From assembly GCA_023248995.1 (NCBI GenBank), contig JAHFDN010000007.1:3980-67979 (forward strand): 64,000 bases of DNA, given 5' to 3'. The translations under genes and the position numbers were made by a program. Source of the DNA: Candidatus Rokuibacteriota bacterium (GTDB taxonomy: Bacteria > Methylomirabilota > Methylomirabilia > Rokubacteriales > CSP1-6). This document shows positions 33,901 to 64,000 of this stretch, one piece after another (the first letter of the stretch is position 1; every line of letters begins with the position of its first letter). The notes under the pieces were generated by a model. It was not told where the DNA came from. It ran no database searches and saw only the letters and a list, made by a program, of their open reading frames with translations.

Positions 33901-33903
33901 CGC

Positions 33904-35148: not shown

Positions 35149-35634
35149 CTACTCGAGCCCTTCGAGAATCCGGTCAATCTTCGCGGGAGTCAGGTTCCCC
35201 TCGTAGCGGTCATCCACCTGCAGCATGGGGGCCATCTCACACGCGCAGAGGCATTCCACCGCGAGGAGCGTGACCCGGCCGTCGGCGGTCGTCGCGCCCA
35301 CGTCCACCCCGAGCCGCATCCTGAGGTGCGCCAGGACGGTCGGAGCGCCCTCCAGGTGACAGGTCAGGTTGTGACAGACGCTCACCACGTGTCGACCCTT
35401 CGGCTCCTGAAAGAAGAGGGTGTAGAAGGTGACGACCTCGTGCACGTGGGCGGGCGGCAGGTCGAACAACCCCGCCACATACTCCTCCGCCTCGAGCGAG
35501 ATGTAGCCGAAGGTGTCCTGGACGAGCTGGAGCACTGGCAGGAGCGCCGCGCGCTTGTCGGGGTAGAGCGCCTGGAGCCGCCGCACCAGGGCGAGCTCTC
35601 CGGCCGTGAACTGCACGGCGGCGGGACGGCTCAC
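35149..35634 (-). CDS. nuoE: NADH-quinone oxidoreductase subunit E
   Basis: 24-kDa thioredoxin-like subunit with 2Fe-2S ligands (..VCHNLTCHLEG..; ..VECLCACEMAP..). GTG start overlaps the nuoD stop. Confidence 0.85.
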   Translation of the reverse strand: MSRPAAVQFTAGELALVRRLQALYPDKRAALLPVLQLVQDTFGYISLEAEEYVAGLFDLPPAHVHEVVTFYTLFFQEPKGRHVVSVCHNLTCHLEGAPTVLAHLRMRLGVDVGATTADGRVTLLAVECLCACEMAPMLQVDDRYEGNLTPAKIDRILEGLE

Positions 35635-37004
35635 CGGTCCAGTTCCCCGCCGATCATGTTGACCGACCCGAAGGTGGGGACCACGTCGGCGACCATCCCG
35701 CCCTCGATCATCCGGTGAAGCGCGGCCATCGGCGGAAAGCACGGCGGCCGGCACCGGACGCGGTAGGGGCGATCGGTCCCGTCGGAGACGACGTAGAACC
35801 CCAGCTCGCCGTTGGCCCCCTCCACAGGAAAGTAGGCCGCGCCCCGGGGCGGTCGGATTCCGTTCCCCTCCATGATCAGCATGAAGTGGTTCATGAGCCC
35901 CTCGATGGACCCGTAGGCCTCTTCCTTCGGCGGAAGCACGACGCGCTTGTCCGACACGTTCACCCGATGGTGAACCGGCCGCTCCAGCCCCTCCAGGTTG
36001 GGCGACAGGGTGATCGGGATCAGCAGGAGCCCCTCCGTCTTCCCCTGCTTGCCCAGGTCCACGTACGTGGCGGGGTCCATGGGCTTCCCCTGGAAGTCCA
36101 CGTTGATGGGGCCGCCGGGGATCGCGTCGAGCGCCTGCTCCACGATCCGCATGGACTGTTCCATCTCGACCATCCGGACCAGGTACCGGTCGTAGTTGTC
36201 CCCGTTCCGGCCGGTGGGAACCTCGAACTCCACGCGGTCGTAGGCCCAGTACGGCTGCGCCCGCCTTACGTCGTACGGCACGCCGGCGGCCCTGAGCATC
36301 GGCCCCGTGATCGCGTAGGCGACGGTGTCCTCCCGGGAGAGGACGCCCACCCCCACCAGACGGTCCATGAAGATGCGGTTCCCCGTGAGAAGCTTGTGCA
36401 CTTCCTCGAGCACCTGGCGGGTTTCCTTGAAGGCTTTGCAGAGCTTCAGGGCAAACCCCTCCGGCAGGTCGGCCTTGACCCCCCCGACCCGCGCGTACGA
36501 GATGGTGAGGCGCGCGCCGGTCACGTCCTCCACGAGCTCCCAGAGGTACTCCCGGGCCTTGATCATGTACAGAAAGACCGTGAAGGCGCCGAGCTCCATC
36601 GCCGAGGCCCCGATGCACGTGAGGTGATCGCAGATCCGGGAGATCTCGCTCATGATCACCCGGATGTACTGGCAGCGCTCGGTCGCGTCGATCCCCAGGA
36701 GCTTCTCGACGCAGGAGGTGTAGCCGAAGTTGTTGATGAGAGGGGAGACGTAGTTGAGGCGGTCGGTGTACGGGATGGCGTTATTGTACGGACCTCCCTC
36801 GCACTCCTTCTCGAAGGCCCGGTGCAGGTAGCCGATCTCCACATCCGCCTTTACCACGGTCTCGCCGTCGAGCTCAGCGAGGATCCGGATGATCCCGTGC
36901 ATGGCCGGGTGGGCCGGGCCCACGTTGACGTAGAGGTGCTGGGACCCCGAGCCGGTCCCGCTTCCCTCGCCCAGATAAATCTCGCGCGTCGTGCGTTCGG
37001 CCAC
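35631..37004 (-). CDS. nuoD: NADH-quinone oxidoreductase subunit D (copy 1; 457 aa, longer than copy 2)
   Basis: ..NVGPAHPAMHGIIRI.. and C-terminal ..RVRCRPPCFPPMAALH.. An extra segment of about 50 aa relative to copy 2 sits in the C-terminal third. Confidence 0.9.
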   Translation of the reverse strand: MAERTTREIYLGEGSGTGSGSQHLYVNVGPAHPAMHGIIRILAELDGETVVKADVEIGYLHRAFEKECEGGPYNNAIPYTDRLNYVSPLINNFGYTSCVEKLLGIDATERCQYIRVIMSEISRICDHLTCIGASAMELGAFTVFLYMIKAREYLWELVEDVTGARLTISYARVGGVKADLPEGFALKLCKAFKETRQVLEEVHKLLTGNRIFMDRLVGVGVLSREDTVAYAITGPMLRAAGVPYDVRRAQPYWAYDRVEFEVPTGRNGDNYDRYLVRMVEMEQSMRIVEQALDAIPGGPINVDFQGKPMDPATYVDLGKQGKTEGLLLIPITLSPNLEGLERPVHHRVNVSDKRVVLPPKEEAYGSIEGLMNHFMLIMEGNGIRPPRGAAYFPVEGANGELGFYVVSDGTDRPYRVRCRPPCFPPMAALHRMIEGGMVADVVPTFGSVNMIGGELDR

Positions 37005-37008
37005 CTGG

Positions 37009-37506
37009 CTAAATCCTGGGACCGATGAGTGGCTGGCGCTTGTTCACCGGATAGTCCTTCCGGAGCGGATGCCCCTCGAACTCCTCGTACATGAGGAGCC
37101 GCCGGAGGTCGGGATGGCCGTCAAAGCGGATCCCGAACATGTCCCACACCTCACGCTCGAACCAGTTGGCGATGGGCCAGAGCCCCACCGCGCTCGGAAC
37201 ATGCGCCTCGTCCTCCTCCACGCGCACCTGGAGCCTCACCCGGTGATTACACGGCAGCGAGTAGAGGTGATAGACCACCTCGAAGCGGGGGCCGAACTCG
37301 CGACCGGGATACTTGAGATAATCCACCGCGGTGAGATCCATGAGGACGTCGAACCTGAGCGCCGGGTCGTCACGGCAGAATTCCAACACGTCCAGGACCG
37401 CCGACCGGTCCACCATCGCCGAGTGATCGCCGCGGTAGTCGTGGGTCTCCAGAATCCGACCGCCGAAGGCCGCGGTCAACCGCGCAAGAATCACCTGTCC
37501 GTCCAT
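37009..37506 (-). CDS. nuoC: NADH-quinone oxidoreductase subunit C
   Basis: 30-kDa subunit pattern (..WPIANWFEREVWDMFGIRFDGHPDLRRLL..). Not fused to nuoD. Confidence 0.85.
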   Translation of the reverse strand: MDGQVILARLTAAFGGRILETHDYRGDHSAMVDRSAVLDVLEFCRDDPALRFDVLMDLTAVDYLKYPGREFGPRFEVVYHLYSLPCNHRVRLQVRVEEDEAHVPSAVGLWPIANWFEREVWDMFGIRFDGHPDLRRLLMYEEFEGHPLRKDYPVNKRQPLIGPRI

Positions 37507-37535
37507 CGACTCGGGAGAGGGCTGCTGGCCGCGAC

Positions 37536-37994
37536 CTAGTAACGCTGAGTCCCGGCCGCGATTTTGTCCTGGAGCTTCATCAGGCCATCGAGCACGCTCT
37601 CGGGGCGGGGCGGGCAGCCGGGGATGTACACGTCCACGGGGATGATCGTGTCGATCCCCATGACCGTGGCGTAATTGTCGTAGAAGCCCCCCGTGCAGGT
37701 GCAGACCCCGAAGGCCACCACCCACTTGGGCTCGCACATCTGATCGTAGATCCGCTTCAGCACCGGCGCCATCTTGTGGCTGATCGTCCCCACCACGAAG
37801 AGCACGTCCGCCTGGCGGGGGGAGAACCGGGGCAAGCCCGCGCCAAACCGGTCCACGTCATAGTGAGAGCAGGCGGTGGCCATGTACTCCATGCCGCAAC
37901 ACGCCGTGACGAACGGGTACTGAAAGATGGAGTACTTCCGCGCCCACCCGATGGCCTCATCGAGCTTGCCGGTGAAGAACCCGCCTACTCCCAC
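37536..37994 (-). CDS. nuoB: NADH-quinone oxidoreductase subunit B
   Basis: N2 cluster ligands (..FVTACCGMEYM..; ..GVCTCTGGFY..; ..IPGCPPRPE..). Probable GTG start. Confidence 0.85.
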   Translation of the reverse strand: MGVGGFFTGKLDEAIGWARKYSIFQYPFVTACCGMEYMATACSHYDVDRFGAGLPRFSPRQADVLFVVGTISHKMAPVLKRIYDQMCEPKWVVAFGVCTCTGGFYDNYATVMGIDTIIPVDVYIPGCPPRPESVLDGLMKLQDKIAAGTQRY

Positions 37995-38335
37995 TCGAAG
38001 CCCCCCTTCTTCCACATGTAGAGGAACCCCAGCATCAGGATGCCGAGGAACACAAGCATGGCGAAATAGCCCGCCCAGCCCAGCCGCCGCACCTGCACCG
38101 CCCAGGGGAAAATCAGCATCACTTCGATGTCGAAGATGATGAAGAAAATCGCCACGGTCGAAAACTTGACGGCGAAGCGCCCTTCCGGGATCGCGACCGG
38201 GTCCATGCCGCACTCGAACGGCTCGGCCTTCACCGGGCTCGGCCGGCGCGGAGCGACGAGCTTCGGGAGCCCCATCATCGCGCCCGCCACGGCCGCGGCG
38301 AAGGCGAAGACCATCACGATCGGCGCGTACTCCAC
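37985..38335 (-). CDS. nuoA: NADH-quinone oxidoreductase subunit A
   Basis: About 116-aa 3-TM NuoA/ND3 pattern (..PFECGMDPV..FSTVAIFFIIFDIEV..). Probable GTG start abutting the lipA stop. Confidence 0.75.
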   Translation of the reverse strand: MEYAPIVMVFAFAAAVAGAMMGLPKLVAPRRPSPVKAEPFECGMDPVAIPEGRFAVKFSTVAIFFIIFDIEVMLIFPWAVQVRRLGWAGYFAMLVFLGILMLGFLYMWKKGGFEWE

Positions 38336-54099: not shown

Positions 54100-54753
54100 C
54101 TACGCCACCGCCAGGTACCGCCCGAGCCGCTGGCGCAGGAACAGTCGCGAGCGGTGAACCCGCGACTTGACCGCAGGCAGGCTGATCCCGAGCGATCGCG
54201 CGATCTCGCGGTTGGGCATGCCCTCGACGTCGTGCAGGAGGAACGCCGTCCGGTAGTCCGCGGGCAGGGCCTCGACGGCGGCCGCCAGGACGTCCCGGAG
54301 TTCACTGTGGAGGACCGGCTCTTCCGCCTTCCCCGACCAGTCCTCGACTGGCTCGACGTGACGCCCGGCCTCGGTGAACTGGGGCAGGAGCGCCTCCCAC
54401 GAGATTTCCGCGTGGTCCCGGCCGCGCCGCCCCCGGAGCTTCTGGTAGGCGGTGTTGGCGGTGATCCGGTAGAGCCAGCTCCCGAAGGCCGACTCCCCCT
54501 TGAACATCCCGATCTTCCGCGCCGCCGTCCAGAGCGCGTCCTGCGCGACCTCCTCGGCATCCTCGCGATTGCCGGTGATCCTGAACGCCAGCCGGTACGC
54601 ACGGTCGCCGTACTCGCGCACGAGCCCCTCGGCAGCATCGCGGTCTCCGCCCCGGAGCTGCCGCACCAAAGCCTCGTCGCGATCGCGTTTGGCTCGTTCC
54701 CGTACCGCACCCCGTGGCATCCCTCGATCCTCCAGCACCAGCGTGCTCATCAC
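54100..54753 (-). CDS. ECF-subfamily RNA polymerase sigma-70 factor
   Basis: Region 2 (..YRLAFRITGNREDAEEVAQDALW..) and region 4 (..LPADYRTAFLLHDVEGMPNREIARSLGISLPAVKSR..). Confidence 0.85.
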   Translation of the reverse strand: MMSTLVLEDRGMPRGAVRERAKRDRDEALVRQLRGGDRDAAEGLVREYGDRAYRLAFRITGNREDAEEVAQDALWTAARKIGMFKGESAFGSWLYRITANTAYQKLRGRRGRDHAEISWEALLPQFTEAGRHVEPVEDWSGKAEEPVLHSELRDVLAAAVEALPADYRTAFLLHDVEGMPNREIARSLGISLPAVKSRVHRSRLFLRQRLGRYLAVA

Positions 54754-55367
54754 CGCGGCCCCCTCGTGTAGAGCAACAGGTGCGCCTTGAGTTCACCGAC
54801 GCACGCTTCCATGATTTGAATGTCCTTGGTGACCTTCGTCAGGAGGATGGCGCCCTCGAGCCCCGCGACGAGGAAATACGCGAGGACCGCCGGATCACAC
54901 TCCGGTCCGAGGCTCTCCTGGGCCTGAGCCTCAGCGAGCGCGTCGGTCAACCGCGCCCGCCAGCGGGTGAAAATCTCGGCCAGGCGCTGGCGAAACCCTT
55001 CGTGCACGTCCGACAACTCGGAGGCCAGGTTGCCCATGGGGCACCCGCCCACGCAGTTCCGCTGCCGCTGCGCCTCGAGGACGCGGTCGAAAAAGCACCG
55101 GACCCGGTCCAGCGGAGCGACGGTGCCATCGGAAAAGCAGGGCTCGAGGGTCCGCTCCACGAACCCCAGGATGATCCGGTCGAGCATCGCGTAGCCGAGC
55201 TCTTCCTTGCTCTTGAAGTAGTAGTAGAAGTTCCCCTTGCCGACCCCGCTCGCCCGCAGCACGTCATCCAGAGAGGTCGAGTGATACCCCTTGAGCGTCA
55301 TGAGGCGACTGGCCGCATGCAGGATGTGCTCCCGGGTCGCGTTGGGGGTCTTCGTGGCCGAAGTCAT
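54750..55367 (-). CDS. TetR/AcrR-family transcriptional regulator
   Basis: N-terminal HTH ..TREHILHAASRLMTLKGYHSTSLDDVLRASGVGKGNFYYYF.. Stop overlaps the sigma factor start. Confidence 0.85.
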   Translation of the reverse strand: MTSATKTPNATREHILHAASRLMTLKGYHSTSLDDVLRASGVGKGNFYYYFKSKEELGYAMLDRIILGFVERTLEPCFSDGTVAPLDRVRCFFDRVLEAQRQRNCVGGCPMGNLASELSDVHEGFRQRLAEIFTRWRARLTDALAEAQAQESLGPECDPAVLAYFLVAGLEGAILLTKVTKDIQIMEACVGELKAHLLLYTRGPR

Positions 55368-55452: not shown

Positions 55453-56862
55453 CTAAAACAAGGCGTTGGCAACTCGGAGCGTCAACTCGACAAGGGGCTT
55501 GGGATAGACCCCGACGCCAACAACGCCCAGGGTGCAGATCAGAATGGCCAGGGCGAGCGGCGGGGAAACAGGAATCGGGCCAGACCGCCGGGGCGCGTCG
55601 ATGTACATCGGCCGGGCAAGCATCAGATAGTAAAAAAGAGCCACCACCGTCAAGATCGCCCCGAGCAGGACGAGCCCGTAGAGCCCGGCCTGGGCGGCCG
55701 CCCAGAACACGTAGAGCTTGGCCCAGAATCCCGCCACGAAGGGAATCCCCCCGAGCGAGAGGAGCGACAGCAGCATGGCCAGAGCCAAGAGCGGCGCGCG
55801 CTCGGCCAAACCCCTGAGGGCGTCCAGATGCACGGACCCCTCAGCCTGGGCCACGGCCTCCACGATCAAGAACGCGCCCATGTTCCCGAAGACGTAGGCG
55901 ACCAGATAGAACAGGACCATGGCGGTCCCCGAGGCCGAGACGGCGGCGAGCCCCACCAGCATGTAGCCGATGTGGGCGATCCCGGAGTAGGCGAGCAGCC
56001 GTTTGCTGTTGCGCTGGGGCAGCGCCATCAGGTTCCCCGCTGTCATCGTGATCGCGGCGAGCCCGGCCACGATCGGGATCCACAGCGCCACCCGGTCTCC
56101 CACGCCCTCCAGATAGACGCGGAAGATCGCGACGAACCCCGCGGCCTTCGGGGCCACGGAGAGCCAAGCGACGAACGGCGTGCTGGCGGCCTCGTACGTG
56201 TCCGGCACCCACATGTGGAACGGGAACGCGGCGATCTTGAACCCGAACCCGGCCAGGACGAGGAACATTCCAACGAGGAGGAGTGGTCCCGGGGCTCCAA
56301 GGGCCCGGGCGACACCGGCCAGGGCGGTCGTCCCCGCCGCGCCGTACACGAAGGAGAGCCCGTAGGCCAGGATGGCGGACGACACGGTACCGACGAGGAA
56401 GAACTTCAGCGCGGCCTCCACGGCGACGCTCTCGCGCTTGAGGAAGCCCGACAGGACGTAGAGGGGGATGGACATGAGCTCGAAGGCCACGAAGAGCAGG
56501 ATCAGCTCCCGCGCGCTCACTAGGACGAGCATGCCGAGCAGCGAGGCCAAGAGGAGGAGGTAGTACTCGGGCGCCCGGCGCCTGAACGCCGGGTCGGTGA
56601 GCGACAGGGACCCCAGGATCCCGATGAAGGTGGCCACGAGGAGGAGTTGCTTGGCGAAGAGCGCGAGACCATCCAGCACGAAGGCGTCGCCGGGAGCGGC
56701 CGGAGCGGGCTCGAGGAGAAACGATCCGACCGCCAGGGCCAGGACGCCGATGGCAGAGATCATCCCGGCGATCCGCCGAGCGTCATCTCGGGCGACGACG
56801 CCGACGACGAAGACTCCCAGCATCAGCGTGCTCAACCCGAGCTCCAGCCCGAGAGCACTCAT
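55453..56862 (-). CDS. nuoN: NADH-quinone oxidoreductase subunit N
   Basis: 14-TM antiporter-like subunit with the NuoN pattern. ATG at MSALGLEL overlaps the nuoM stop. Confidence 0.85.
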   Translation of the reverse strand: MSALGLELGLSTLMLGVFVVGVVARDDARRIAGMISAIGVLALAVGSFLLEPAPAAPGDAFVLDGLALFAKQLLLVATFIGILGSLSLTDPAFRRRAPEYYLLLLASLLGMLVLVSARELILLFVAFELMSIPLYVLSGFLKRESVAVEAALKFFLVGTVSSAILAYGLSFVYGAAGTTALAGVARALGAPGPLLLVGMFLVLAGFGFKIAAFPFHMWVPDTYEAASTPFVAWLSVAPKAAGFVAIFRVYLEGVGDRVALWIPIVAGLAAITMTAGNLMALPQRNSKRLLAYSGIAHIGYMLVGLAAVSASGTAMVLFYLVAYVFGNMGAFLIVEAVAQAEGSVHLDALRGLAERAPLLALAMLLSLLSLGGIPFVAGFWAKLYVFWAAAQAGLYGLVLLGAILTVVALFYYLMLARPMYIDAPRRSGPIPVSPPLALAILICTLGVVGVGVYPKPLVELTLRVANALF

Positions 56863-58406
56863 GGGAGGGCTCCGAGCCGCGCCAGCAGCGGAACCGTGGC
56901 CGTATCGATCGGGCCAAGGGCGATCCCCGGCGCCACGCCGAAGAGCACGATCACGAAGATGAGAAGCACCAGCGCCACCCACTCGGGCCCCCGGGCGTCT
57001 GGGAGATCGTGGAACTCGCCCCCGGCCGGCACCGCGCCCCAGAAGATCTGCTTCACCACGCGGAGGACGTAGATGGCGGTGAGGAAGGTCCCCGCGACCG
57101 CCGGGAAGAGCCACCAGGAGTGGGCCGAGCGCCAGGCGCCCAGGAAGGTCAGAAACTCGGCCACGAAGCCGGCCGTCGCCGGCAGTCCCAGCGAGGACAG
57201 CCCGCCGATCGTGAAGGCCGTGGCGATCCCCGGCATCATGCGGCCGAAGCCGCCCATCCGGAAGATCTCCCGCGAGTGCGCTTTCTCGTAGACGAGCCCG
57301 ACGAGGGCGAAAAAGAGCCCCGTCATGATCCCGTGGGCGAACATCTGGAAGACCGAGCCGTTCAGCCCCGCCTCGGTCAAGGTGGCCGCCCCGAGGAGAA
57401 CGATCCCCATGTGGGAGACGGAAGAATAGGCGATGACGTACTTCAGGTCGGTCTGAGCCATGGCCGAGAGCGCCCCATAGACGATGTTGATGGTGGCGAT
57501 CGTCCCCACGAGCGGCACCCAGTCGTGCGTGCCTTCGGGAAGAAGCCCCATCCCCAGCCGCACCACGCCGTAGGCGCCCAGCTTCATCAGCACGCCGGCG
57601 TGGAGCATGGAGACGGCCGTGGGAGCCGAGGCGTGGCCGTCAGGGGACCAGGTGTGGAGCGGCCAGATGCCCGCCAGGATTCCAAACCCGACGTAGAACA
57701 GCAGGAACACCCACCGCTGGAGCACCGGGTCGAAGGCGACACCCTCCATCTCGAGAAAGCTGAACGAGGCCCCACCGGCGGCCATATAGAGCGCCAGGAT
57801 CCCCACGAGGATGAAGGCCGACCCGAGGAGCAGGTAGAGGGTCAGCTTCATGGCGGCGTACTCCTTGGAGCCCACGCCAGTCTCGCGCATCGCCCAGCCG
57901 AAGAGACCCCGCGGACGGATCTGGGCCGACGACCCCCAGATACCGATCAGGAGGTACATGGGGAGGACGGCGAGTTCGTAGAACAGGAAGAAGACGAAAA
58001 GGTCCAAGGAGACGAAGACGCCGAAGACCCCCGTGACGAGGACCAGGAGCAGCGCGTAAAACTCCTGGCTCCGTGTCTCGACCGTCCAGGAGGCGAAGAC
58101 GCCCGCGAAGATGATGATGGCCGTGAGCAGGACCAGCACGAGGCCGATCCCGTCGGCCCCCACCTCGTAGGAAATGCCGAGGGGCGGCACCAGCGCGACC
58201 TTCTGGTAGAACTGAAAGCGCGCGGCGTCCACGTCCCCGTCGAAGCGGGCGTAGGCTACGAGCGACAGGAGCAGCGAGATGCCCGTCGCCACGGCCGCGA
58301 TCAGGCGCACCGCCCGCGGGCGGTGGCGGGCGGTGAACATGATGAGCAGCGCCCCCACGAAGGGCATCCAGGTGATCAGCGAGAGGATCCAGACGTTCAG
58401 GTCCAT
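56859..58406 (-). CDS. nuoM: NADH-quinone oxidoreductase subunit M
   Basis: ND4-like (..WLPDAM.. equivalent ..HTWSPDGHASAPTAVSMLHAGVLMKLG..). ATG at MDLNVWIL abuts the nuoL stop. Confidence 0.9.
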   Translation of the reverse strand: MDLNVWILSLITWMPFVGALLIMFTARHRPRAVRLIAAVATGISLLLSLVAYARFDGDVDAARFQFYQKVALVPPLGISYEVGADGIGLVLVLLTAIIIFAGVFASWTVETRSQEFYALLLVLVTGVFGVFVSLDLFVFFLFYELAVLPMYLLIGIWGSSAQIRPRGLFGWAMRETGVGSKEYAAMKLTLYLLLGSAFILVGILALYMAAGGASFSFLEMEGVAFDPVLQRWVFLLFYVGFGILAGIWPLHTWSPDGHASAPTAVSMLHAGVLMKLGAYGVVRLGMGLLPEGTHDWVPLVGTIATINIVYGALSAMAQTDLKYVIAYSSVSHMGIVLLGAATLTEAGLNGSVFQMFAHGIMTGLFFALVGLVYEKAHSREIFRMGGFGRMMPGIATAFTIGGLSSLGLPATAGFVAEFLTFLGAWRSAHSWWLFPAVAGTFLTAIYVLRVVKQIFWGAVPAGGEFHDLPDARGPEWVALVLLIFVIVLFGVAPGIALGPIDTATVPLLARLGALP

Positions 58407-60226
58407 CAGGGCCAGTAGCTCCACACGATCACGAGGAGGAGCCCGAAGGCGACGCCATAGAGGTAGTCCTGAGCGCGGCCGGTCTGGATCCGCCGGAGGC
58501 GGTCGCCTACCCTCAGGGTCCACGCGCTGGCCCAATTCACGAGGCCATCGACCAGGTAACGATCCACCCACCCCACCAAGCGCGAGAGCGCGAGGAAGCC
58601 TCCCCGGTAGACGGCACCGTAGAAGTCGTCGAGCCAGAACTTGCGCTGGGCGGCGGTATAGAGCGGGGCGAAGATCCGCGCCAGCGTCTCGGCGCTGACG
58701 GCCTGCTTCTGGTACGTGACCCAGGCACAGACGATCCCCGCCACGGCCAGCGCGGACGAGACCCACGGAATCCACCCCGGGCCGTGGCCTTCCTGTCCGC
58801 CCCCACGGAGCGCGAAGTAGCCGCCGACGCCCACGGTCAGCCCCGCTAGAGTCCAGAGCGGCAGGCTCATGGACACCGGCGGATCGTGGGGATGTCCCTC
58901 CGCGCGACCAGCACCGAAGAAGACCAGGAAGACGACGCGAAACATGTAGAAGGCCGTGAGGAAGACCGTGAGCGCGAGCATCAGGAAGGGAACCGTGAGC
59001 CCCCCTTCCCAGACGCCGGCCAGGACGGCGTCCTTGGAGAAGAAGCCGGCCAAGGGCCAGATCCCCGCCAGGGCCAGGGTTCCCACGAGAAAAACGATCG
59101 CGGTCTGGGGCATGGCGCCGCCGAGGCGCCCCATCCTCCAGACGTCGTTGGTGCCAACGGCATGGATCACCGCGCCCGCGCCGAGGAACAGGAGCGCCTT
59201 GAAGAGGCCGTGGGTCAGGAGGTGGAAGAACCCCGCCCCGAGGGCGCCCGCGCCCAGCGCCGCCATCATGTAGCCCAGCTGCGAGACCGTCGAGTACGCG
59301 AGAACGCGCTTGATGTCAGCCTGGACCAGCCCGAGCACCGCCGCCAGCAGCGCGGTGAACGCGCCCACCCAGCCGATCAGCGCCAGGACGTCGGGGGTCA
59401 GGAGGAAGAGCGGATAGGCGCGGGTGACCAGGTACACGCCCGCGGCCACCATCGTCGCCGCGTGGATGAGGGCGGAGACGGGCGTCGGTCCCTCCATCGC
59501 GTCGGGAAGCCAGACGTGGAGGGGAAACTGGGCGCTCTTGCCCACGGCCCCGAGGTAGATGAGGAACATGACGAGCCCGAGCCCGTCGGGCGCCAGAGTC
59601 CCGTCCCCCGCCATCTTGAAGAGCTCGGAGAAGGTGAAGGTCCCGGCGCGCCCCCACAGGAGTACGATGCCGATGATAAAGCCGAGATCGCCGACCTTCG
59701 TCGTCCAGAACGCCTTCACCGCGGCGCGCGCCGCCTCGGGCTTGTCGTACCAGAAGCCGATCAGGAGGTACGAGCAGAGCCCCACCAGCTCCCAGAAGAT
59801 GAACATCTGGAGGAAGTTCCCCGCAAGGACCAGGCCGATCATCGAGACGGCGAAGAGCGAGTGGTAGGCGTAGTAGCGCCCGAGCGCCGGCCCCGTCTCG
59901 TGCTCCAGGTACCCGAGCGAGTAGAGCTGGACCAGGAACGAAACCAGGGCCACCAGGACGAGCATCACCGCCGCCACCGGGTCCACCAGGATCCCGACGG
60001 TGGCCATGGGTCCGCCCTCGGCGGGAAGCCAGCTCCACGCGAGCTCCACCCCCTGCCCGGAGCGCCAGAGGACCAGCGCCGCGACGAGAGCCCCTCCGAT
60101 CGCGGCGATGCCGAGCGCCCCGGCGGCCTTCCCGGCCCGACGCAACGGCGCCACCACCGCGAGGAGAACGAAGGCGCAAAGAGGGAGCCCGAGGGCCGCC
60201 AGAGCCAGCGTGCCGGCGTCGTTCAT
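58406..60226 (-). CDS. nuoL: NADH-quinone oxidoreductase subunit L
   Basis: ND5-like, about 606 aa (..HVWLPDAMEGPTPVSALIHAATMVAAGVYL..). ATG at MNDAGTL. Confidence 0.9.
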   Translation of the reverse strand: MNDAGTLALAALGLPLCAFVLLAVVAPLRRAGKAAGALGIAAIGGALVAALVLWRSGQGVELAWSWLPAEGGPMATVGILVDPVAAVMLVLVALVSFLVQLYSLGYLEHETGPALGRYYAYHSLFAVSMIGLVLAGNFLQMFIFWELVGLCSYLLIGFWYDKPEAARAAVKAFWTTKVGDLGFIIGIVLLWGRAGTFTFSELFKMAGDGTLAPDGLGLVMFLIYLGAVGKSAQFPLHVWLPDAMEGPTPVSALIHAATMVAAGVYLVTRAYPLFLLTPDVLALIGWVGAFTALLAAVLGLVQADIKRVLAYSTVSQLGYMMAALGAGALGAGFFHLLTHGLFKALLFLGAGAVIHAVGTNDVWRMGRLGGAMPQTAIVFLVGTLALAGIWPLAGFFSKDAVLAGVWEGGLTVPFLMLALTVFLTAFYMFRVVFLVFFGAGRAEGHPHDPPVSMSLPLWTLAGLTVGVGGYFALRGGGQEGHGPGWIPWVSSALAVAGIVCAWVTYQKQAVSAETLARIFAPLYTAAQRKFWLDDFYGAVYRGGFLALSRLVGWVDRYLVDGLVNWASAWTLRVGDRLRRIQTGRAQDYLYGVAFGLLLVIVWSYWP

Positions 60227-60230
60227 AACC

Positions 60231-60307
60231 CCTCGGAGGGGGGCTCCGCCCCCCTTCCGACGCCTCCCCCACGGGATTGCGCGGGCAAAGCCCGCGCTCG
60301 AACGGCC
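60231..60307. repeat. GC-rich intergenic repeat element, copy C (between nuoK2 stop and nuoL start)
   Basis: CCTCGGAGGGGGGGCTCCGCCCCCCTTCCGACGCCTCCCCCACGGGATTGCGCGGGCAAAGCCCGCGCTCGAACGGCC. Confidence 0.75.
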
Positions 60308-60333
60308 GCGAACCAGCGTGTCATGGAGGTGCG

Positions 60334-60633
60334 CTAGCCCTTCAGCAAGTCCAGGCGATCCGCTTCCACCGTGCGCCGGACCCGGAAGATCAGAATGACG
60401 ATGGCGAGTCCCAGGGCGACCTCGGCCACGGTGATGGAAATGGTGAAGAGCGCGAAGATCAGGCCCGCCGGGTCCGCGGCGTAGCGGGCGAAGGCGACCA
60501 GGTTCACGTTGACCGCGTTCAGCATCAGCTCGATCCCGAGGAGGATCCCGATGGCGTTCCGCCGGGTCAGGACGCCGAAGAGCCCGATGGCGAAGAGGCA
60601 GGCGGCCAGGAGCAAGTAGGGCTGGAGCCCCAT
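60334..60633 (-). CDS. nuoK: NADH-quinone oxidoreductase subunit K (copy 2)
   Basis: 100 aa (..RRNAIGILLGIELMLNAVNVNLVAFA..). Confidence 0.85.
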   Translation of the reverse strand: MGLQPYLLLAACLFAIGLFGVLTRRNAIGILLGIELMLNAVNVNLVAFARYAADPAGLIFALFTISITVAEVALGLAIVILIFRVRRTVEADRLDLLKG

Positions 60634-61127
60634 CACTCCTCCTTCCGCGCGAAGAAGAGGGCGCCCAGGAGCGCCGCGAGGAAGACCACGGCCAGGAGCT
60701 CGAAGGGCAGGACGTAGCGCGTGAGGAGATTGCGACCAATGGCCTCGGTCAGATCGCCCGCCACGGGGGGGGCGGCGTGGGGGAGCGGCGCCCGCATCAC
60801 GAAGAGGCCGATCGCGATCAGGACGGCAAGGGAGACGAGCCCGCCGGCGGCGACCCCGCGGTTGGTCTGGTTGAGCCGCTCCCCGACGAGCCGCTCGGTC
60901 ACGACGATGGCGAAGACCACGATGGTGATCACACCGCCCGCGTACAGGAGGATCTGGACCGCGGCCAGGAACTCGGCGTGGAGGAGGAGGAACACGCCGG
61001 CGGTGGCCACCAGCGCCAGGGCCAGGTAGAGGACCGAGTGAAAGAGGTTCTTGGAGAGCACGACGGCGAGACTGGAGGCCAGGAGCACGAGGGCCAGCCC
61101 CCAGAAGCCCGCCGCCTCGAGGCTCAC
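60633..61127 (-). CDS. nuoJ: NADH-quinone oxidoreductase subunit J (copy 2)
   Basis: ..LLLHAEFLAAVQILLYAGGVITIVVFAIVV..; GTG start. Confidence 0.8.
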   Translation of the reverse strand: MSLEAAGFWGLALVLLASSLAVVLSKNLFHSVLYLALALVATAGVFLLLHAEFLAAVQILLYAGGVITIVVFAIVVTERLVGERLNQTNRGVAAGGLVSLAVLIAIGLFVMRAPLPHAAPPVAGDLTEAIGRNLLTRYVLPFELLAVVFLAALLGALFFARKEE

Positions 61128-61654
61128 TCCTTGGCCTCTCCCTTGGCCGCCTTGGGCGGGGCCTGCATGTCACGCAGCCTGGTCCCGGTGGCCCAGGAGG
61201 GCTGGAACTCTTTGCCCAGGGCGTGGAGGCGATCCTTGTCGAGCAGGAGCTCCCGGCGGTCCGACGTCGCCAGGTCGAACGTCTTCAGCATGATGATGGC
61301 ATCCGTGGGGCACACCTGCACGCAGAGCTCGCAGAACTCGCAGGCGTAGAGTTCGAGCGTGAACGTCTTGGCGTAATTCCGCTTCTCCGCCTTCAACATC
61401 TCCACCTGGATGACCTGCGGCGGGCAGACGTACTCGCAGAGCCGGCAGCCGATGCAGTTCTCCTCGCCGGTCTCGGGATCGTAGGTGAGCGCCAGGAGGC
61501 CCCGGAGGCGGTCGGGGTACGGGCGCACGACGTCCGGGTAGTGGACCGTCACCGGCTTGCGGAAGAGGTTTTTCAGGGTGATGCCCATGGCCCGGGCCAC
61601 CGCGCCCGCCGTCTGCCAGGTCTCCTGCCAGAATCCCATCCCGTTACGCGACAT
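61124..61654 (-). CDS. nuoI: NADH-quinone oxidoreductase subunit I (copy 2)
   Basis: CIGCRLCEYVCP and CEFCELCVQVCP ferredoxin motifs. Confidence 0.9.
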   Translation of the reverse strand: MSRNGMGFWQETWQTAGAVARAMGITLKNLFRKPVTVHYPDVVRPYPDRLRGLLALTYDPETGEENCIGCRLCEYVCPPQVIQVEMLKAEKRNYAKTFTLELYACEFCELCVQVCPTDAIIMLKTFDLATSDRRELLLDKDRLHALGKEFQPSWATGTRLRDMQAPPKAAKGEAKE

Positions 61655-62612
61655 GGCCGCTCCGGAGCGCCACCCAGAAGCCCGTGGCCATGAGGAGCGC
61701 CAGCGTGGCCGGGAGCAACACCTTCCAGGAGAGCCCCAGGATCTGGTCCACGCGGATCCGGACGAAGCTCCACCGGACCCAGGTCACCAGGAGGAAGATG
61801 AAGAGCGCCTTCAGGAGGAACCAGACGGGGCCGGGGAGCCCCGGCCCGAGCCAGCCGCCGAGGAAGAGCAGCGCACCGAGGCAGGACACGCCGAACATGT
61901 GCGTGTACTCGGCGAGCTGGATCAGCGCGAACTTCATGCCGCTGTACTCCACGCGAAAGCCGGCGACCAACTCCGACTCGGCCTCGAGAATGTCGAAGGG
62001 CACCCGGTTCTCCGAGGCGATCGTCGCCAGGAGGAACATCACGAACGCCAGCTGGCCGATGACCGGATAGGCCACGAACCAGAGCCCCCGCTGAGCCTCG
62101 ACGATCAGCGAGAGCTTGAGCGAGCCGGCCAGGAGGACCGGGATCAGCGCGGTCAGGACGAAGGGGACCTCGTAGGAGATGATCTGGTTGACCGCGCGCA
62201 TCGCGGAGAGGAGCGCGTACTTGTTGTTGGACCCCCAGCCGCCCATGAAGAGCCCGACGATCTCCAGCGACGACACGGCCAGGAAGAAGAGGAGCCCGAT
62301 GTTCAGGTCCGCGAGCCCCAGCCCCGGCGCGAAGGGGACGGTGGCGAAGATGAGGAACGACGGGATCAGGAAGACGATCGGCGCCAGGTTGTAGACCGGC
62401 CGGTCCGCGAGGGCCGGGACGATGTCTTCCTTGATCAGCAGCTTGAGCGCGTCGGCGATCGGCTGGAGCCACCCGTGCGGTCGGCCCACGCGGTAGGGCC
62501 CGATGCGCGACTGCATGCGGGCGGCGAACTTCCGCTCGACGTAGGTGAGGTAGGTGACGATGAGGACGATCGCGTTGAGAAGAACGAACGCGGTGATGAC
62601 GTGGCGGATCAT
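61644..62612 (-). CDS. nuoH: NADH-quinone oxidoreductase subunit H (copy 2)
   Basis: ..YVERKFAARMQSRIGPYRVG..; ..EAESELVAGFRVEYSGMKFA.. ATG overlaps the nuoD2 stop. Confidence 0.9.
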   Translation of the reverse strand: MIRHVITAFVLLNAIVLIVTYLTYVERKFAARMQSRIGPYRVGRPHGWLQPIADALKLLIKEDIVPALADRPVYNLAPIVFLIPSFLIFATVPFAPGLGLADLNIGLLFFLAVSSLEIVGLFMGGWGSNNKYALLSAMRAVNQIISYEVPFVLTALIPVLLAGSLKLSLIVEAQRGLWFVAYPVIGQLAFVMFLLATIASENRVPFDILEAESELVAGFRVEYSGMKFALIQLAEYTHMFGVSCLGALLFLGGWLGPGLPGPVWFLLKALFIFLLVTWVRWSFVRIRVDQILGLSWKVLLPATLALLMATGFWVALRSGHVA

Positions 62613-63772
62613 CGGTCCACTTCTCCGAAGACCGGATCCACCGAGCCCATGATCGCGACCACGTCCGCCACCTTGTGGCCCGGCACGATGTGGGGCAGGA
62701 TGGAAAGGTTCGAGAAGGAGGCCCCGCGCCACTTCATCCGGTACGGCTTGGGGCCGCCGTCGGCGATCAGGTAGCATCCCACCTCACCCCGCGGCCCCTC
62801 CACGCGGGCGTAGGCCTCGCCCTTCGGGATCCGCACCTGCCCCACCGACTTGAGCCCCGGCCGGGAGGAGATGGGCCCCGCGGGGAGCCCGTCGAGAACC
62901 TGGCGGACGATCTTGATGGACTCCCGGAACTCCTGCATCCGCACGCGGTAGCGCGCGTAGCAGTCGCCCGCCGCCTCCACCGGAATCTTGAAGTCGAAGT
63001 CGGGGTAGGACGAGTACGGATCGTCGCGCCGGGCGTCGAAGTCCACGTCGGACCCGCGCAGCAGGGGTCCCGCGACGCCGACCTCCTGGGCGAGCTCCCT
63101 CGAAATCACGCCCACCCCCTGGGAGCGCACCAGGAAGGGCGTGTTGGCTTCGAGCATGCTCTCGTACTCGTCGATCCGCCGGTCGATGTGGTCCACCGTC
63201 TCGCGGCAGTGCTTCGCCCAGCCCTCCGGCAGGTCGTAGCGGGTGCCGCCCACCTGGTGGAAGCCGTAGAGGAGCCGGGCGCCCGTCAGGGCCTCGAACA
63301 GGTCCAGTACCATTTCGCGCTCGCGAAAACAGTAGAGAAACACCGTGGCGCCGCCGCCGAGCGCGCCGCCCATGTCCAGGCACCACGTCCCGAGCCAGAG
63401 GCAGTGGGAGGCGATCCGCTGGAGCTCGCCGACGAGGACCCGCAGGTACTGGGCCCGCTTGGGCACCTCGATCTTCCCGATCTTCTCGGCCGCCAGCACG
63501 TAGGCGAGCTCTGAGGTCATCGCCGCCACGTAGTCGGTCTTAGAGGCGATCGAGGGGTACTGGGCGTAGGTGAGGGTCTCGCCGAGCTTCTCGTGGCACC
63601 GGTGGAGGTAGCCGATCACCGAATCCATCGCGACAATGGTCTCGCCCTCGAGGGTCAGGATCATCCGGAAAACCCCGTGGGCGGAGGGGTGCTGGGGCCC
63701 CATGTTCATCACGAGGCGCTCGTTCCCCCCGTAGCCGAGCTCGATGACCTTGCGGGCTTCCAGATCCGCCAT
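62609..63772 (-). CDS. nuoD: NADH-quinone oxidoreductase subunit D (copy 2, 387 aa)
   Basis: ..NMGPQHPSAHGVFRM..; ..GVDPVFGEVDR C-terminus. Confidence 0.9.
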   Translation of the reverse strand: MADLEARKVIELGYGGNERLVMNMGPQHPSAHGVFRMILTLEGETIVAMDSVIGYLHRCHEKLGETLTYAQYPSIASKTDYVAAMTSELAYVLAAEKIGKIEVPKRAQYLRVLVGELQRIASHCLWLGTWCLDMGGALGGGATVFLYCFREREMVLDLFEALTGARLLYGFHQVGGTRYDLPEGWAKHCRETVDHIDRRIDEYESMLEANTPFLVRSQGVGVISRELAQEVGVAGPLLRGSDVDFDARRDDPYSSYPDFDFKIPVEAAGDCYARYRVRMQEFRESIKIVRQVLDGLPAGPISSRPGLKSVGQVRIPKGEAYARVEGPRGEVGCYLIADGGPKPYRMKWRGASFSNLSILPHIVPGHKVADVVAIMGSVDPVFGEVDR

Positions 63773-63775
63773 GGC

Positions 63776-64000
63776 CTACCGGAGCGGCGAGAACTCCGTC
63801 GGGACCAAAATTTTGGACTCCATCACCTGCATGAGCGGCTGGAGCTTTTCCACAGTCTGTTTCCAAACCGGGTCGGCCATACAGGCCTTCCGTAGCTGGG
63901 CGCGATGCTCCAGGCTCTCGTACTGCCAGAGATGGACCACGCGGTTCAGCTCCCCGAGCTCAGAGGACCAGATGGCCACGGGCTTACTGTACTTCAGGCG
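63776..64000 (-). CDS. NIPSNAP-family protein (partial; the 5' end runs off the window)
   Basis: ..VVHLWQYESLEHRAQLR..DPVWK.. is a NIPSNAP C-terminal pattern. The frame stays open to the window end. Only 4 nt separate it from nuoD2. Confidence 0.55.
   Translation of the reverse strand, partial: RLKYSKPVAIWSSELGELNRVVHLWQYESLEHRAQLRKACMADPVWKQTVEKLQPLMQVMESKILVPTEFSPLR

What the first reader, a model, noticed from the sequence alone, without database searches (positions are those of the whole stretch)
55453..64000. Second partial complex I cluster NIPSNAP-nuoD2-H2-I2-J2-K2-L-M-N with no nuoA/B/C/E/F/G
D, H, I, J and K are duplicated relative to cluster 1, and the copies are clearly divergent (compare NuoD1 ..NVGPAHPAMHGIIRI.. 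with NuoD2 ..NMGPQHPSAHGVFRM..; NuoK1 and NuoK2 share only the core). L, M and N are unique to this cluster. D and H form the quinone pocket, and I/J/K link it to the membrane arm. Two D/H/I/J/K sets sharing one L/M/N set and one A/B/C/E/F/G set would suggest alternative quinone-module isoforms (for example different quinone type or oxygen regime). Alternatively, a second complex-I-like enzyme may have its remaining subunits encoded elsewhere. A NIPSNAP-family gene sits 4 nt upstream in the same orientation, which is unusual.
Basis: partly seen in the sequence, partly recalled or inferred. Interest (0 to 1): 0.6.

Follow-up and report, generated by a model that had tools for sequence, protein, structure and literature searches.

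The report
Eleven-subunit complex I operon, truncated view
This is the downstream two-thirds of a well-known kind of second respiratory complex I operon (the 11-subunit type without the NADH-binding module) in a Rokubacteria genome: the "missing" nuoA/B/C genes lie just past the window edge, and the only unusual feature is a conserved NIPSNAP gene between nuoC and nuoD.

Summary
The genes exist as described, on the minus strand: a NIPSNAP fragment, then nuoD2-H2-I2-J2-K2-L-M-N. They are intact, tightly coupled and under purifying selection. The claim "no nuoA/B/C" is an artefact of the window edge. A metagenome contig 99.9% identical to window 60103-64000 continues upstream into nuoA2-nuoB2-nuoC2-NIPSNAP. 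The same order is found in 59 of 59 related Rokubacteria genomes with enough flank.

[quoted passage not shown] This class is known from Moorella, Desulfitobacterium, Chloroflexota and cyanobacteria, and its electron donor is still debated (probably ferredoxin). It is separate from cluster 1, whose paralogues are only 33-48% identical.

Three things remain of interest:
- A two-domain NIPSNAP gene sits in the operon in 67 of 72 loci. Its function is unknown, and I found no published description.
- NuoM has leucine in place of the conserved TM7 lysine, as does the whole Moorella-type lineage.
- Cluster 1 (nuoA-K followed by pyruvate dehydrogenase genes) never carries nuoLMN. I could not determine whether a third L/M/N locus exists.

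Overall this is a new variant of a known kind, of modest interest.

The parts
63776..64000 (-). 3' end (last 74 codons plus stop) of a two-domain NIPSNAP gene of 211 aa. The rest lies beyond the window edge.
   Evidence: Pfam PF07978, E 3e-23. The full gene is seen on L165 2682-3317, which is 99.9% identical over the overlap. It has an AAGGAG ribosome-binding site. dN/dS is 0.13 against its orthologue in L003. AlphaFold2 model pLDDT 97.
62609..63772 (-). nuoD2 (387 aa), the quinone-site subunit
   Evidence: PF00346, E 6e-90. His32 and Tyr81 are kept (equivalent to Thermus Nqo4 H38/Y87). There are no NiFe cysteine ligands. Best solved relative is cyanobacterial NdhH 6hum_H, E 8e-108. dN/dS 0.06-0.09.
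61644..62612 (-). nuoH2 (322 aa); overlaps nuoD2 by 4 nt
   Evidence: PF00146, E 2e-110. The same 322-aa gene call is made on the ENA contigs. Junctions.
61124..61654 (-). nuoI2 (176 aa), carrying two [4Fe-4S] motifs
   Evidence: CIGCRLCEYVCP at residue 67 and CEFCELCVQVCP at residue 105. TIGR01971 NuoI hit.
60633..61127 (-). nuoJ2 (164 aa)
   Evidence: PF00499. Gene call on L165.
60334..60633 (-). nuoK2 (99 aa)
   Evidence: PF00420. Both membrane glutamates are kept (GIELMLN, VAEVA).
58406..60226 (-). nuoL (606 aa), preceded by the only sizeable intergenic gap in the operon (107 nt)
   Evidence: PF00361 plus PF00662. NF005141 scores 608 bits, above its cutoff. TM5 Glu, TM7 Lys (GKSAQ) and TM8 His are kept. 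A C-terminal lateral-helix region is present.
56859..58406 (-). nuoM (515 aa). It has Leu in place of the conserved TM7 Lys and a roughly 19-aa insertion after TM5.
   Evidence: TIGR01972 hit. Alignment to Paracoccus NuoM and T. elongatus NdhD1 shows K to L. Leu in 55 of 55 orthologues and in 119 of 119 Moorella/Chloroflexota-type homologues.
55453..56862 (-). nuoN (469 aa), the last gene of the operon
   Evidence: TIGR01770 hit. TM5 Glu, TM7 Lys (FKIAAFPFHMW) and TM8 Lys are kept.
54750..55367 (-). TetR-family regulator, 85 nt downstream of nuoN on the same strand. It is conserved at this position.
   Evidence: PF00440 plus PF16925. Found downstream of nuoN in 39 related loci.
29825..38335 (-). 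Cluster 1, shown for comparison: nuoA1-B1-C1-D1-E-F-G-H1-I1-J1-K1. It is flanked by lipA upstream and by pyruvate dehydrogenase E1 alpha/beta, E2 and E3 downstream. It has no nuoL/M/N.
   Evidence: Pfam. Gene calls on identical ENA contigs. The same architecture is seen in about 45 Rokubacteria metagenome loci.

Best explanation
The flagged region is the 3' two-thirds of one 12-gene operon: nuoA2-nuoB2-nuoC2-NIPSNAP-nuoD2-H2-I2-J2-K2-L-M-N. The genome is a Rokubacteria (Methylomirabilota) genome.

[quoted passage not shown] It has a quinone-reducing module (NuoB/C/D/I with clusters N2, N6a and N6b and the His/Tyr quinone site). It also has a full membrane arm (H, A, J, K, N, M, L). It has no NADH-oxidising N-module (NuoE/F/G).

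By analogy with its relatives, it most likely takes electrons from a donor other than NADH. Reduced ferredoxin is the leading candidate. It would pass them to the quinone pool while pumping protons. It works in parallel with cluster 1, the NADH-linked enzyme encoded 17 kb away.

The NIPSNAP protein is probably a lineage-specific accessory subunit, docking adaptor or assembly factor of this enzyme.

Shown: gene content, completeness, cofactor and quinone-site motifs, purifying selection, conservation across the phylum, and membership of the lineage that lacks NuoEFG.

Inferred: the donor, proton pumping, and any role for NIPSNAP.
For: - Completeness: L165 is 99.9% identical to window 60103-64000 and carries nuoA2/B2/C2 and the full NIPSNAP gene upstream. 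A second contig with an identical NuoD2 shows the same order.
- Conservation: 59 of 59 related genome loci with enough upstream flank have A, B and C upstream of D2. None of 80 has any E/F/G-like gene within 10 kb.
- One transcription unit: gene junctions are -10, +4, +30, +3, -4, -11, -4, -1, +107, -1 and -4 nt.
- Functional and not a remnant: dN/dS is 0.05-0.24 for every nuo gene. The N2 ligands in NuoB2, the two 4Fe-4S motifs in NuoI2, His32/Tyr81 in NuoD2 and the Glu/Lys residues in K, L and N are all present.
- Family: the nearest NuoM homologues (119 of 119 with the same Leu at TM7) include Moorella thermoacetica and Chloroflexota, whose operons are nuoABCDHIJKLMN without EFG. NuoD2 and NuoL are closest to subunits of the ferredoxin-dependent cyanobacterial NDH-1L among solved structures.
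- Donor: PMC11238625 reviews the class and proposes ferredoxin as the electron shuttle. An EFG-less operon in another organism sits directly after a 2-oxoacid:ferredoxin oxidoreductase (L172).
- NIPSNAP link: the gene is present between nuoC and nuoD in 67 of 72 loci. It has its own ribosome-binding site and a 3-nt gap to nuoD2. dN/dS is 0.13 against its orthologue.
Against: - The upstream genes are read from a 99.9%-identical metagenome contig and not from the window's own record. The 81-kb NCBI contig that holds an identical NuoD1 was not retrieved.
- No ferredoxin, flavodoxin or other donor gene is encoded in or next to the operon.
- NuoEFG exist in the same genome (cluster 1) and could in principle also dock on this enzyme.
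- NuoM lacks the TM7 lysine, which is regarded as essential in canonical complex I (my own knowledge of E. coli NuoM K234 mutagenesis). Pumping stoichiometry may therefore differ.
- Affinities to solved structures are mixed: H2 and M are not closest to NDH-1.
- For NIPSNAP: equally similar homologues sit in unrelated catabolic neighbourhoods (L161, L164). Three Rokubacteria loci lack the gene. It has no redox-cofactor motif. Its fold matches no known complex I subunit.
Confidence: 0.8

Rival explanations
1. The two D/H/I/J/K sets are alternative quinone-module isoforms that plug into one shared set of NuoA/B/C/E/F/G and one shared L/M/N set.
For: Within the 64-kb window alone, A/B/C/E/F/G occur once and L/M/N occur once. 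The paralogues are divergent.
Against: Cluster 2 has its own nuoA2, nuoB2 (with N2 ligands) and nuoC2 directly upstream, in 59 of 59 related genomes. The paralogues are 33-48% identical, so they are ancient separate lineages and not isoforms. Relatives in Moorella and Chloroflexota run the same 11 genes as a stand-alone enzyme.
Confidence: 0.03
2. Shared distal pump module. Rokubacteria have only one nuoL/M/N set, so the NADH-linked A-K module of cluster 1 must use the L/M/N proteins encoded by cluster 2, or else work without antiporter-like subunits.
For: Cluster 1 ends at nuoK1 and runs straight into pyruvate dehydrogenase genes in the window and in about 45 Rokubacteria loci. No other L/M/N-like gene is in the window or in the flanks of 160 related loci. 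NuoK is the most similar paralogue pair at 48%, against 33-34% for D/H/I/J. The genes downstream of cluster 2 (tetR, an ECF sigma factor, rplU, rpmA, obg) are conserved in many related loci. I did not test whether the 17-kb spacing between the two clusters is itself conserved.
Against: I could not inventory any whole genome, so absence elsewhere is not shown. Split nuo operons with L/M/N or other subunits at separate loci are common, for example in Nitrospina (PMC3578206). The interfaces would have to fit two sets of A/J/K/H that are only 33-48% identical. My attempts to find a lysine-type NuoM from Rokubacteria were uninformative and not negative.
Confidence: 0.1
3. Shared N-module. The cluster 2 enzyme borrows NuoE/F/G made from cluster 1 and is a second NADH:quinone oxidoreductase, with a different Q and P module (for example for another quinone or oxygen regime).
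For: NuoEFG are encoded 17 kb away in the same genome. No alternative donor gene is found in the operon.
Against: The lineage to which cluster 2 belongs functions without NuoEFG in organisms that lack them (Moorella operon; Desulfitobacterium, PMC11238625). NuoD2 and NuoI2, which would form the docking surface, are only 33-34% identical to D1 and I1. nuoE/F/G are embedded between nuoD1 and nuoH1, which is typical of a dedicated 14-subunit-type arrangement.
Confidence: 0.08
4. The NIPSNAP gene is a passenger. It is a small enzyme or ligand-binding protein that happens to sit in the operon and has no physical or functional link with the complex.
For: Homologues 35-55% identical lie in unrelated neighbourhoods. 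The gene is absent in L025, L052 and L075. Two NIPSNAP types less than 53% identical to each other occupy the same slot in different genomes. The fold belongs to the ABM / dimeric alpha+beta barrel superfamily of small-molecule enzymes.
Against: It is kept at exactly the same position, inside a translationally coupled operon, in 67 of 72 loci across a phylum whose nuo genes have diverged to about 80% identity. It is under purifying selection. When one type is lost, the other is retained.
Confidence: 0.3
5. Cluster 2 is a decaying, unexpressed remnant of a duplicated nuo operon.
For: None beyond its apparent incompleteness in the window.
Against: All ORFs are intact. dN/dS is 0.05-0.24. All cofactor motifs are kept. 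The operon is conserved in 80 genomes.
Confidence: 0.01

Closest known systems
[quoted passage not shown]
   Same: The same 11 core genes occur in the same order with no nuoE/F/G. The NuoM signature is also the same, with Leu replacing the TM7 Lys ('GFGxL...WPxHxWSPDGH'). The Q-site and Fe-S motifs are kept. The class is reviewed in PMC11238625.
   Different: Rokubacteria carry a two-domain NIPSNAP gene between nuoC and nuoD and a roughly 45-residue N-terminal extension on NuoB (212 aa against 166 aa in Moorella). The host is a large-genome soil and groundwater lineage and not a strict anaerobe (my own knowledge). It also encodes an NADH-linked complex I.
Cyanobacterial/chloroplast NDH-1L (ferredoxin:plastoquinone oxidoreductase)
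   Same: It has 11 homologous core subunits and no NuoEFG. NdhH and NdhF1 are the best solved relatives of NuoD2 (E 8e-108) and NuoL (E 2e-129).
   Different: No genes for the photosynthesis-specific subunits (NdhL-NdhS, NdhV) are in the operon; I did not search for them elsewhere. NdhD1 keeps the TM7 Lys. H2 and M are not closest to NDH-1.
Canonical 14-subunit complex I (Thermus, E. coli, Paracoccus, mitochondria), represented in this window by cluster 1
   Same: It shares the homologous core architecture, quinone-site residues and antiporter-like subunits L/M/N with a lateral helix.
   Different: Cluster 2 has no N-module, its subunits are only 33-48% identical to those of cluster 1, and its NuoM lacks the TM7 Lys.
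Lineage-specific accessory proteins encoded with or bound to bacterial complex I: Thermus Nqo15/Nqo16, and the two non-Nuo genes that replace nuoE/nuoF in the Campylobacter/Helicobacter nuo operon (my own knowledge, not tested here)
   Same: In each case a small, non-core soluble protein associated with the peripheral arm is specific to one lineage.
   Different: The NIPSNAP fold (tandem dimeric alpha+beta barrel) is unrelated to those proteins. Its position between nuoC and nuoD differs. No physical association has been shown.

Membership tests
[quoted passage not shown] | All eleven core genes nuoA, B, C, D, H, I, J, K, L, M, N in one cluster | tested here: met
   D through N are in the window. 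A, B and C are on the 99.9%-identical extension L165. NCBIfam confirms A2/B2/C2 from the close orthologue L003. 59 of 59 related loci agree.
[quoted passage not shown] | No nuoE, nuoF or nuoG in the cluster | tested here: met
   Gene calls on L165 show none between C and H. None of 80 related loci has an E/F/G-like hit within 10 kb.
[quoted passage not shown] | Q-module like complex I and unlike [NiFe] hydrogenases: NuoD has the His/Tyr quinone ligands and no NiFe cysteine motifs, NuoB has the N2 ligands, and NuoI has two 4Fe-4S motifs | tested here: met
   NuoD2 has GPQHPSAHG (His32) and TDY (Tyr81), and its C-terminus 'VDPVFGEVDR' has no cysteines. NuoB2 has CCAIE, GSCANSGG and GCPP. NuoI2 has two C..C..C...CP motifs.
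[quoted passage not shown] | Sequence relatedness to recognised members | tested here: met
   NuoM homologues at 46-51% identity to the probe P0241 (itself 48% identical to this NuoM) include Moorella thermoacetica and Chloroflexota, with EFG-less operons.
[quoted passage not shown] | Quinone reduction driven by a non-NADH donor and coupled to ion translocation | not testable with these tools
   This needs biochemistry. The donor is unresolved even for cultured members (PMC11238625).
Canonical 14-subunit complex I (Nuo14) | NADH-oxidising module NuoE/F/G as part of the enzyme | tested here: not met
   No E/F/G in the operon. The only copies are inside cluster 1.
Canonical 14-subunit complex I (Nuo14) | TM5 Glu / TM7 Lys pair in each of NuoL, NuoM and NuoN | tested here: not met
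   L and N keep it. NuoM has Leu at the TM7 Lys position in the window, in 55 of 55 orthologues and in 119 of 119 relatives.
Cyanobacterial-type NDH-1 | Oxygenic-photosynthesis-specific subunits (NdhL-S, V), including the ferredoxin-binding NdhS | not tested
   None is encoded in the operon. I made no genome-wide search. The resemblance rests only on NdhH and NdhF being the best solved relatives.
NIPSNAP family (PF07978) | NIPSNAP domain; tandem copies form a dimeric alpha+beta barrel | tested here: met
   PF07978, E 3e-23 on the window fragment. Both halves of the full-length protein match single-domain NIPSNAP crystal structures. The AF2 model (pLDDT 97) superposes on 5ixu and 1vqy at about 1 A rmsd per domain.

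The most novel reading that the evidence does not exclude
Rokubacteria possess only one set of antiporter-like subunits. The NADH-linked module (cluster 1, nuoA-K with EFG but never LMN) and the N-module-less module (cluster 2) would then both assemble onto, or compete for, the same NuoL/M/N distal pump. The operon-encoded NIPSNAP protein would help to specify which proximal module is built. This would be a modular, exchangeable complex I.
Probability: 0.08. Interest if true: 0.8.

Novelty: new variant of a known kind. Interest (0 to 1): 0.35.

Why it matters
In itself the locus is an ordinary second complex I operon of the 11-subunit class. It shows that Rokubacteria, a widespread uncultured soil and groundwater lineage, run an NADH-linked enzyme and an N-module-less enzyme side by side.

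Its value is as a lead on an old open question: what donates electrons to, or docks on, the 11-subunit enzyme. No common partner has been found (PMC11238625). Here a soluble protein of unknown function (NIPSNAP) has been held inside the operon across a whole phylum. It also has full-length homologues 50% identical in animals, where NIPSNAP proteins are mitochondrial. That gives a concrete candidate to test.

Two side observations also matter. First, the supposedly essential TM7 lysine of NuoM is replaced throughout a large natural lineage, which bears on current models of proton pumping. Second, cluster 1 universally lacks nuoLMN in this phylum, which needs a whole-genome answer.

Tried and rejected
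1. Third nuoLMN locus for cluster 1. None of the following resolved it:
- tblastn of L/M/N against the window and 160 related loci found nothing outside cluster 2.
- Two Rokubacteria genome papers do not mention complex I at all, and the Methylomirabilis literature searches gave no inventory.
- The homologue search with NuoD1 returned only Rokubacteria orthologues of at least 82% identity.
- Lysine-type NuoM representatives were screened by high-GC amino-acid composition, then by source names and genomic context. All turned out to be EFG-less operons of other organisms.

2. Clade assignment from best PDB hits. D2 and L point to cyanobacterial NDH-1, but H2 and M do not. I do not claim membership of an NDH-1 clade.

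3. An apparent loss of the quinone-binding tyrosine in NuoD2 (Ile aligned under a 'PY' tyrosine). I rejected this after counting offsets: the functional Tyr is the 'DY' tyrosine, which is conserved as Tyr81.

4. NIPSNAP as a known complex I subunit or redox protein. There is no sequence or fold match to any respiratory-complex chain in the PDB. There is no NCBIfam model. The protein has one cysteine only.

5. NIPSNAP as a family specific to nuo operons. Rejected, because homologues occur in unrelated neighbourhoods.

6. Promoter and terminator scans upstream of nuoA2 and downstream of nuoN gave nothing above chance.

7. Literature on NIPSNAP together with nuo and on a natural lysine-less NuoM: nothing relevant was found in the searchable library.


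Full report
**1. What is in the sequence**

All genes of the finding lie on the minus strand. ORF listing and Pfam scans identify the following:
- the last 74 codons of a NIPSNAP gene (63776-64000, cut by the window end)
- nuoD2 (62609-63772)
- nuoH2 (61644-62612)
- nuoI2 (61124-61654)
- nuoJ2 (60633-61127)
- nuoK2 (60334-60633)
- nuoL (58406-60226)
- nuoM (56859-58406)
- nuoN (55453-56862)
- a TetR regulator (54750-55367)

The NIPSNAP stop codon and the nuoD2 ATG are 3 nt apart.

A first cluster, nuoA-B-C-D-E-F-G-H-I-J-K, lies at about 29825-38335, also on the minus strand. It runs directly into pyruvate dehydrogenase E1 alpha/beta, E2 and E3 genes and has no nuoL/M/N. The paralogue pairs are only 33% (D), 34% (H), 34% (I), 33% (J) and 48% (K) identical. 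The window holds no further L/M/N-like gene. The descriptive part of the finding is therefore correct.

**2. The "missing" nuoA/B/C are an edge artefact**

Exact-sequence look-ups of NuoD2 and NuoI2 found metagenome contigs that carry them. One of these, L165 (6,990 bp), is 99.9% identical to window 60103-64000, with 4 mismatches in 3,898 nt. It continues 3,092 nt beyond position 64000.

That extension carries, in order:
- ahpC on the opposite strand
- a tRNA-Leu gene
- nuoA2 (117 aa)
- nuoB2 (212 aa)
- nuoC2 (150 aa)
- the full 211-aa NIPSNAP gene
- nuoD2

A scan of one genome per species returned 80 loci with NuoD2 at 80-93% identity. Most are labelled Candidatus Rokubacteria, Rokuibacteriota or Methylomirabilota, and the closest include CSP1-6 (92%). 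A few carry other labels, such as Nitrosocosmicus, Verrucomicrobiia, Binatia and Acidobacteria.
- Of the 59 loci with enough upstream flank, all 59 have nuoA, B and C upstream of D2.
- None of the 80 has any E/F/G-like gene within 10 kb.
- Of the 50 loci with enough downstream flank, 44 passed a scripted check for H through N. Five others failed only on nuoH2, which one search shows present and starting at the last base of D2. One (L064) lacks a nuoJ2 hit.

**3. One operon, under selection**

The 12 genes are joined by gaps of -10, +4, +30, +3, -4, -11, -4, -1, +107, -1 and -4 nt. The NIPSNAP gene has its own AAGGAG ribosome-binding site.

Pairwise dN/dS against close orthologues is 0.05-0.24 for every nuo gene. 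For NIPSNAP it is 0.13 against its true orthologue in L003.

The functional motifs are in place:
- NuoB2 has the N2 cluster ligands (CCAIE, GSCANSGG, GCPP).
- NuoI2 has two CxxCxxCxxxCP motifs.
- NuoD2 keeps His32 and Tyr81 (Thermus Nqo4 H38 and Y87) and has no NiFe cysteine ligands.
- NuoK2 keeps both membrane glutamates.
- NuoL and NuoN keep the TM5 Glu, the TM7 Lys and the TM8 His or Lys.

The "unexpressed remnant" alternative is therefore not supported by the sequence.

**4. What kind of enzyme it is**

Cluster 2 encodes the 11 core subunits NuoABCDHIJKLMN and no N-module. Among solved structures, NuoD2 and NuoL are closest to NdhH and NdhF1 of the ferredoxin-dependent cyanobacterial NDH-1L (E 8e-108 and 2e-129). 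NuoD1 is closest to the mitochondrial 49-kDa subunits. H2 and M do not follow the NDH-1 pattern, so I make no clade claim from these rankings.

A more telling marker came from NuoM. The conserved TM7 lysine (E. coli K234) is a leucine here (alignments) and in 55 of 55 Rokubacteria orthologues. An exhaustive search of 1.84 billion representative proteins showed that about 50 of the best 150 clusters also lack the lysine.

The nearest such protein outside the Rokubacteria (P0241) has 119 listed homologues, and all 119 carry Leu. They include Moorella thermoacetica, Thermanaerosceptrum, Dehalobacterium, Calderihabitans, Peptococcaceae and Chloroflexota. In Moorella the context is nuoA-B-C-D-H-I-J-K-L-M-N with no EFG and no NIPSNAP. 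A Chloroflexota MAG is similar, with two M-like genes.

Cluster 2 is therefore a member of the established 11-subunit complex I-like class. According to PMC11238625:
- The class is widespread.
- Its Q-module is considered equivalent to that of complex I.
- Its direct electron donor is unresolved, and no common partner has been found.
- Ferredoxin is the favoured shuttle.

One EFG-less operon from another organism sits directly after a 2-oxoacid:ferredoxin oxidoreductase (L172), which fits that view. Lysine-type NuoM also occurs in EFG-less operons (L170-L172). The leucine type is therefore a sub-lineage of the class.

**5. Most likely mechanism**

Shown: a complete, selected, cofactor-competent 11-subunit operon that is separate from cluster 1.

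Inferred:
- It oxidises a non-NADH donor, most likely reduced ferredoxin. NADH is instead handled by cluster 1, which sits next to pyruvate dehydrogenase and lipoate synthase.
- It reduces quinone at the NuoD2/B2/H2 site.
- It pumps protons through H/A/J/K and N/M/L.

The leucine in NuoM means that the central antiporter-like subunit cannot form the canonical Glu-Lys pair. How this lineage couples is unknown.

**6. The NIPSNAP gene**

A gene of about 211 aa with two NIPSNAP domains lies between nuoC and nuoD in 67 of 72 loci. Three loci have no room for one, with a gap of only 24-41 nt. For two others (L011, L013) the ORF script found no gene of this size, although tblastn does find NIPSNAP-like sequence there.

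There are two main types, less than 53% identical to each other, plus a small third group:
- The majority type is found in 65 loci.
- The window's type is found in L003 and L018, and as the first of two tandem copies in L060 and L067.

This suggests a duplication followed by differential loss. It also explains why the window's NIPSNAP is only 48% identical to that of L001 while the neighbouring nuo genes are 89-93% identical.

The family is not specific to nuo operons. One homologue at 58% identity sits in nuoABC-NIPSNAP-D (L163). Others at 55% and 35% sit in unrelated neighbourhoods. A Nematostella protein is 50% identical over 98% of the length.

The AlphaFold2 model is very confident (pLDDT 97.3, pTM 0.91) and shows two tandem beta-alpha-beta-beta-alpha-beta domains. 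Foldseek finds only the following, and no respiratory-complex subunit (sequence search):
- uncharacterised NIPSNAP structures
- ABM-type cofactor-free monooxygenases
- haem-binding relatives

The protein has a single cysteine and no Fe-S motif. I rate an accessory, docking or assembly role at roughly 0.6 and a passenger role at 0.3. Nothing here tests physical association. I found no publication linking NIPSNAP to nuo operons.

**7. Cluster 1 without nuoLMN**

The order lipA-nuoA..K-pdhA-pdhB is conserved in about 45 Rokubacteria metagenome loci, and none has L/M/N after nuoK1. The genes downstream of cluster 2 (tetR, an ECF sigma factor, rplU, rpmA, obg) are also conserved.

Whether a third locus supplies L/M/N to cluster 1 could not be determined with the tools left. 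Split nuo gene sets are common elsewhere, for example in Nitrospina. I therefore give the shared-pump reading about 0.1.

**8. Verdict**

- Observation: partly confirmed.
- Main interpretation: refuted by its own test. The alternative, a second complex I-like enzyme, is right.
- The locus is a Rokubacteria member of the known 11-subunit complex I-like class, distinguished by an operon-embedded NIPSNAP gene.
- Novelty: new variant of a known kind.
- Interest: modest, 0.35.

Noticed in passing
window 56859-58406 (-), NuoM residue about 244: NuoM has Leu where all canonical antiporter-like subunits have the TM7 lysine (E. coli NuoM K234): 'GFGILAGIWPLHTWSPDGH' against 'FAVKMPMWPVHTWLPDAH'. This holds in 55 of 55 Rokubacteria orthologues. 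It also holds in 119 of 119 homologues from Moorella, Dehalobacterium, Peptococcaceae, Chloroflexota and NC10, and about 50 of the top 150 representative clusters are non-lysine. The TM5 Glu, TM8 Lys and TM12 Glu are kept. An extra His appears in TM8 ('SMLHAG'), and there is a roughly 19-aa insertion after TM5. I found no description of this in the searchable literature.
   Followed up: yes
window 29825-38335 (-); L082-L160: Cluster 1 (nuoA-K with E, F and G) never has nuoL/M/N. It is flanked by lipA upstream and by pyruvate dehydrogenase E1 alpha/beta, E2 and E3 downstream, in the window and in about 45 Rokubacteria loci. The location of its L/M/N genes, if any, is unknown.
   Followed up: partly
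L001-L080, slot between nuoC2 and nuoD2; L060 1817-3005 and L067 7753-8942: Two main NIPSNAP types, less than 53% identical to each other, occupy the same operon slot in different genomes (plus a small third group in L047/L066). L060 and L067 carry both types in tandem, and L025, L052 and L075 carry none. The window's type is the minority one. This points to duplication and differential loss, or to replacement.
   Followed up: yes
P0083 (homologue of the NIPSNAP protein encoded at L003 5153-5788): A Nematostella vectensis (animal) NIPSNAP protein is 50% identical over 98% of the bacterial protein and has an N-terminal extension of about 30 residues. Eukaryotic NIPSNAPs are mitochondrial matrix proteins (my own knowledge), so a link between NIPSNAP and complex I-type enzymes may be worth testing.
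   Followed up: no
window 35631-37004 (-), NuoD1 residues about 303-349; window 32296-33900 (-), NuoG1: NuoD1 (457 aa) has an insertion of about 47 residues with no counterpart in mitochondrial or bacterial 49-kDa subunits (the alignment splits at 302/350). NuoG1 is short (534 aa). Both features are conserved in length among the Rokubacteria orthologues.
   Followed up: no
L165 1556-2194 (nuoB2, just beyond the window edge): NuoB2 is 212 aa and has a hydrophilic N-terminal extension of about 45-50 residues compared with Moorella NuoB (166 aa) and NuoB1 (152 aa). It could be a docking element, possibly for NIPSNAP or for an electron donor.
   Followed up: no
window 54100-55367 (-) and 52351-53972 (-): A TetR regulator and an ECF-type sigma factor follow nuoN directly. 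The order nuoN-tetR-sigma-rplU-rpmA-obg is conserved in many Rokubacteria loci, which suggests a dedicated regulator for the operon.
   Followed up: partly
L172 22-2860 (another organism): A 2-oxoacid:ferredoxin oxidoreductase (POR alpha/beta) lies immediately upstream of nuoA in an EFG-less nuo operon. This is contextual support for ferredoxin as donor to this enzyme class.
   Followed up: no
L169 8430-11464 (Chloroflexota MAG): An EFG-less nuo operon carries two consecutive NuoM-like genes, and no NuoB was called between nuoA and nuoC (there is a 765-nt gap). The second M is of the leucine type.
   Followed up: no
window 60227-60333 (-): The only sizeable intergenic gap inside the operon (107 nt) lies between nuoK2 and nuoL. 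In related loci this gap ranges from about 2 to about 160 nt. It could hold an internal promoter or an RNA processing site that separates the proximal genes from L/M/N.
   Followed up: no
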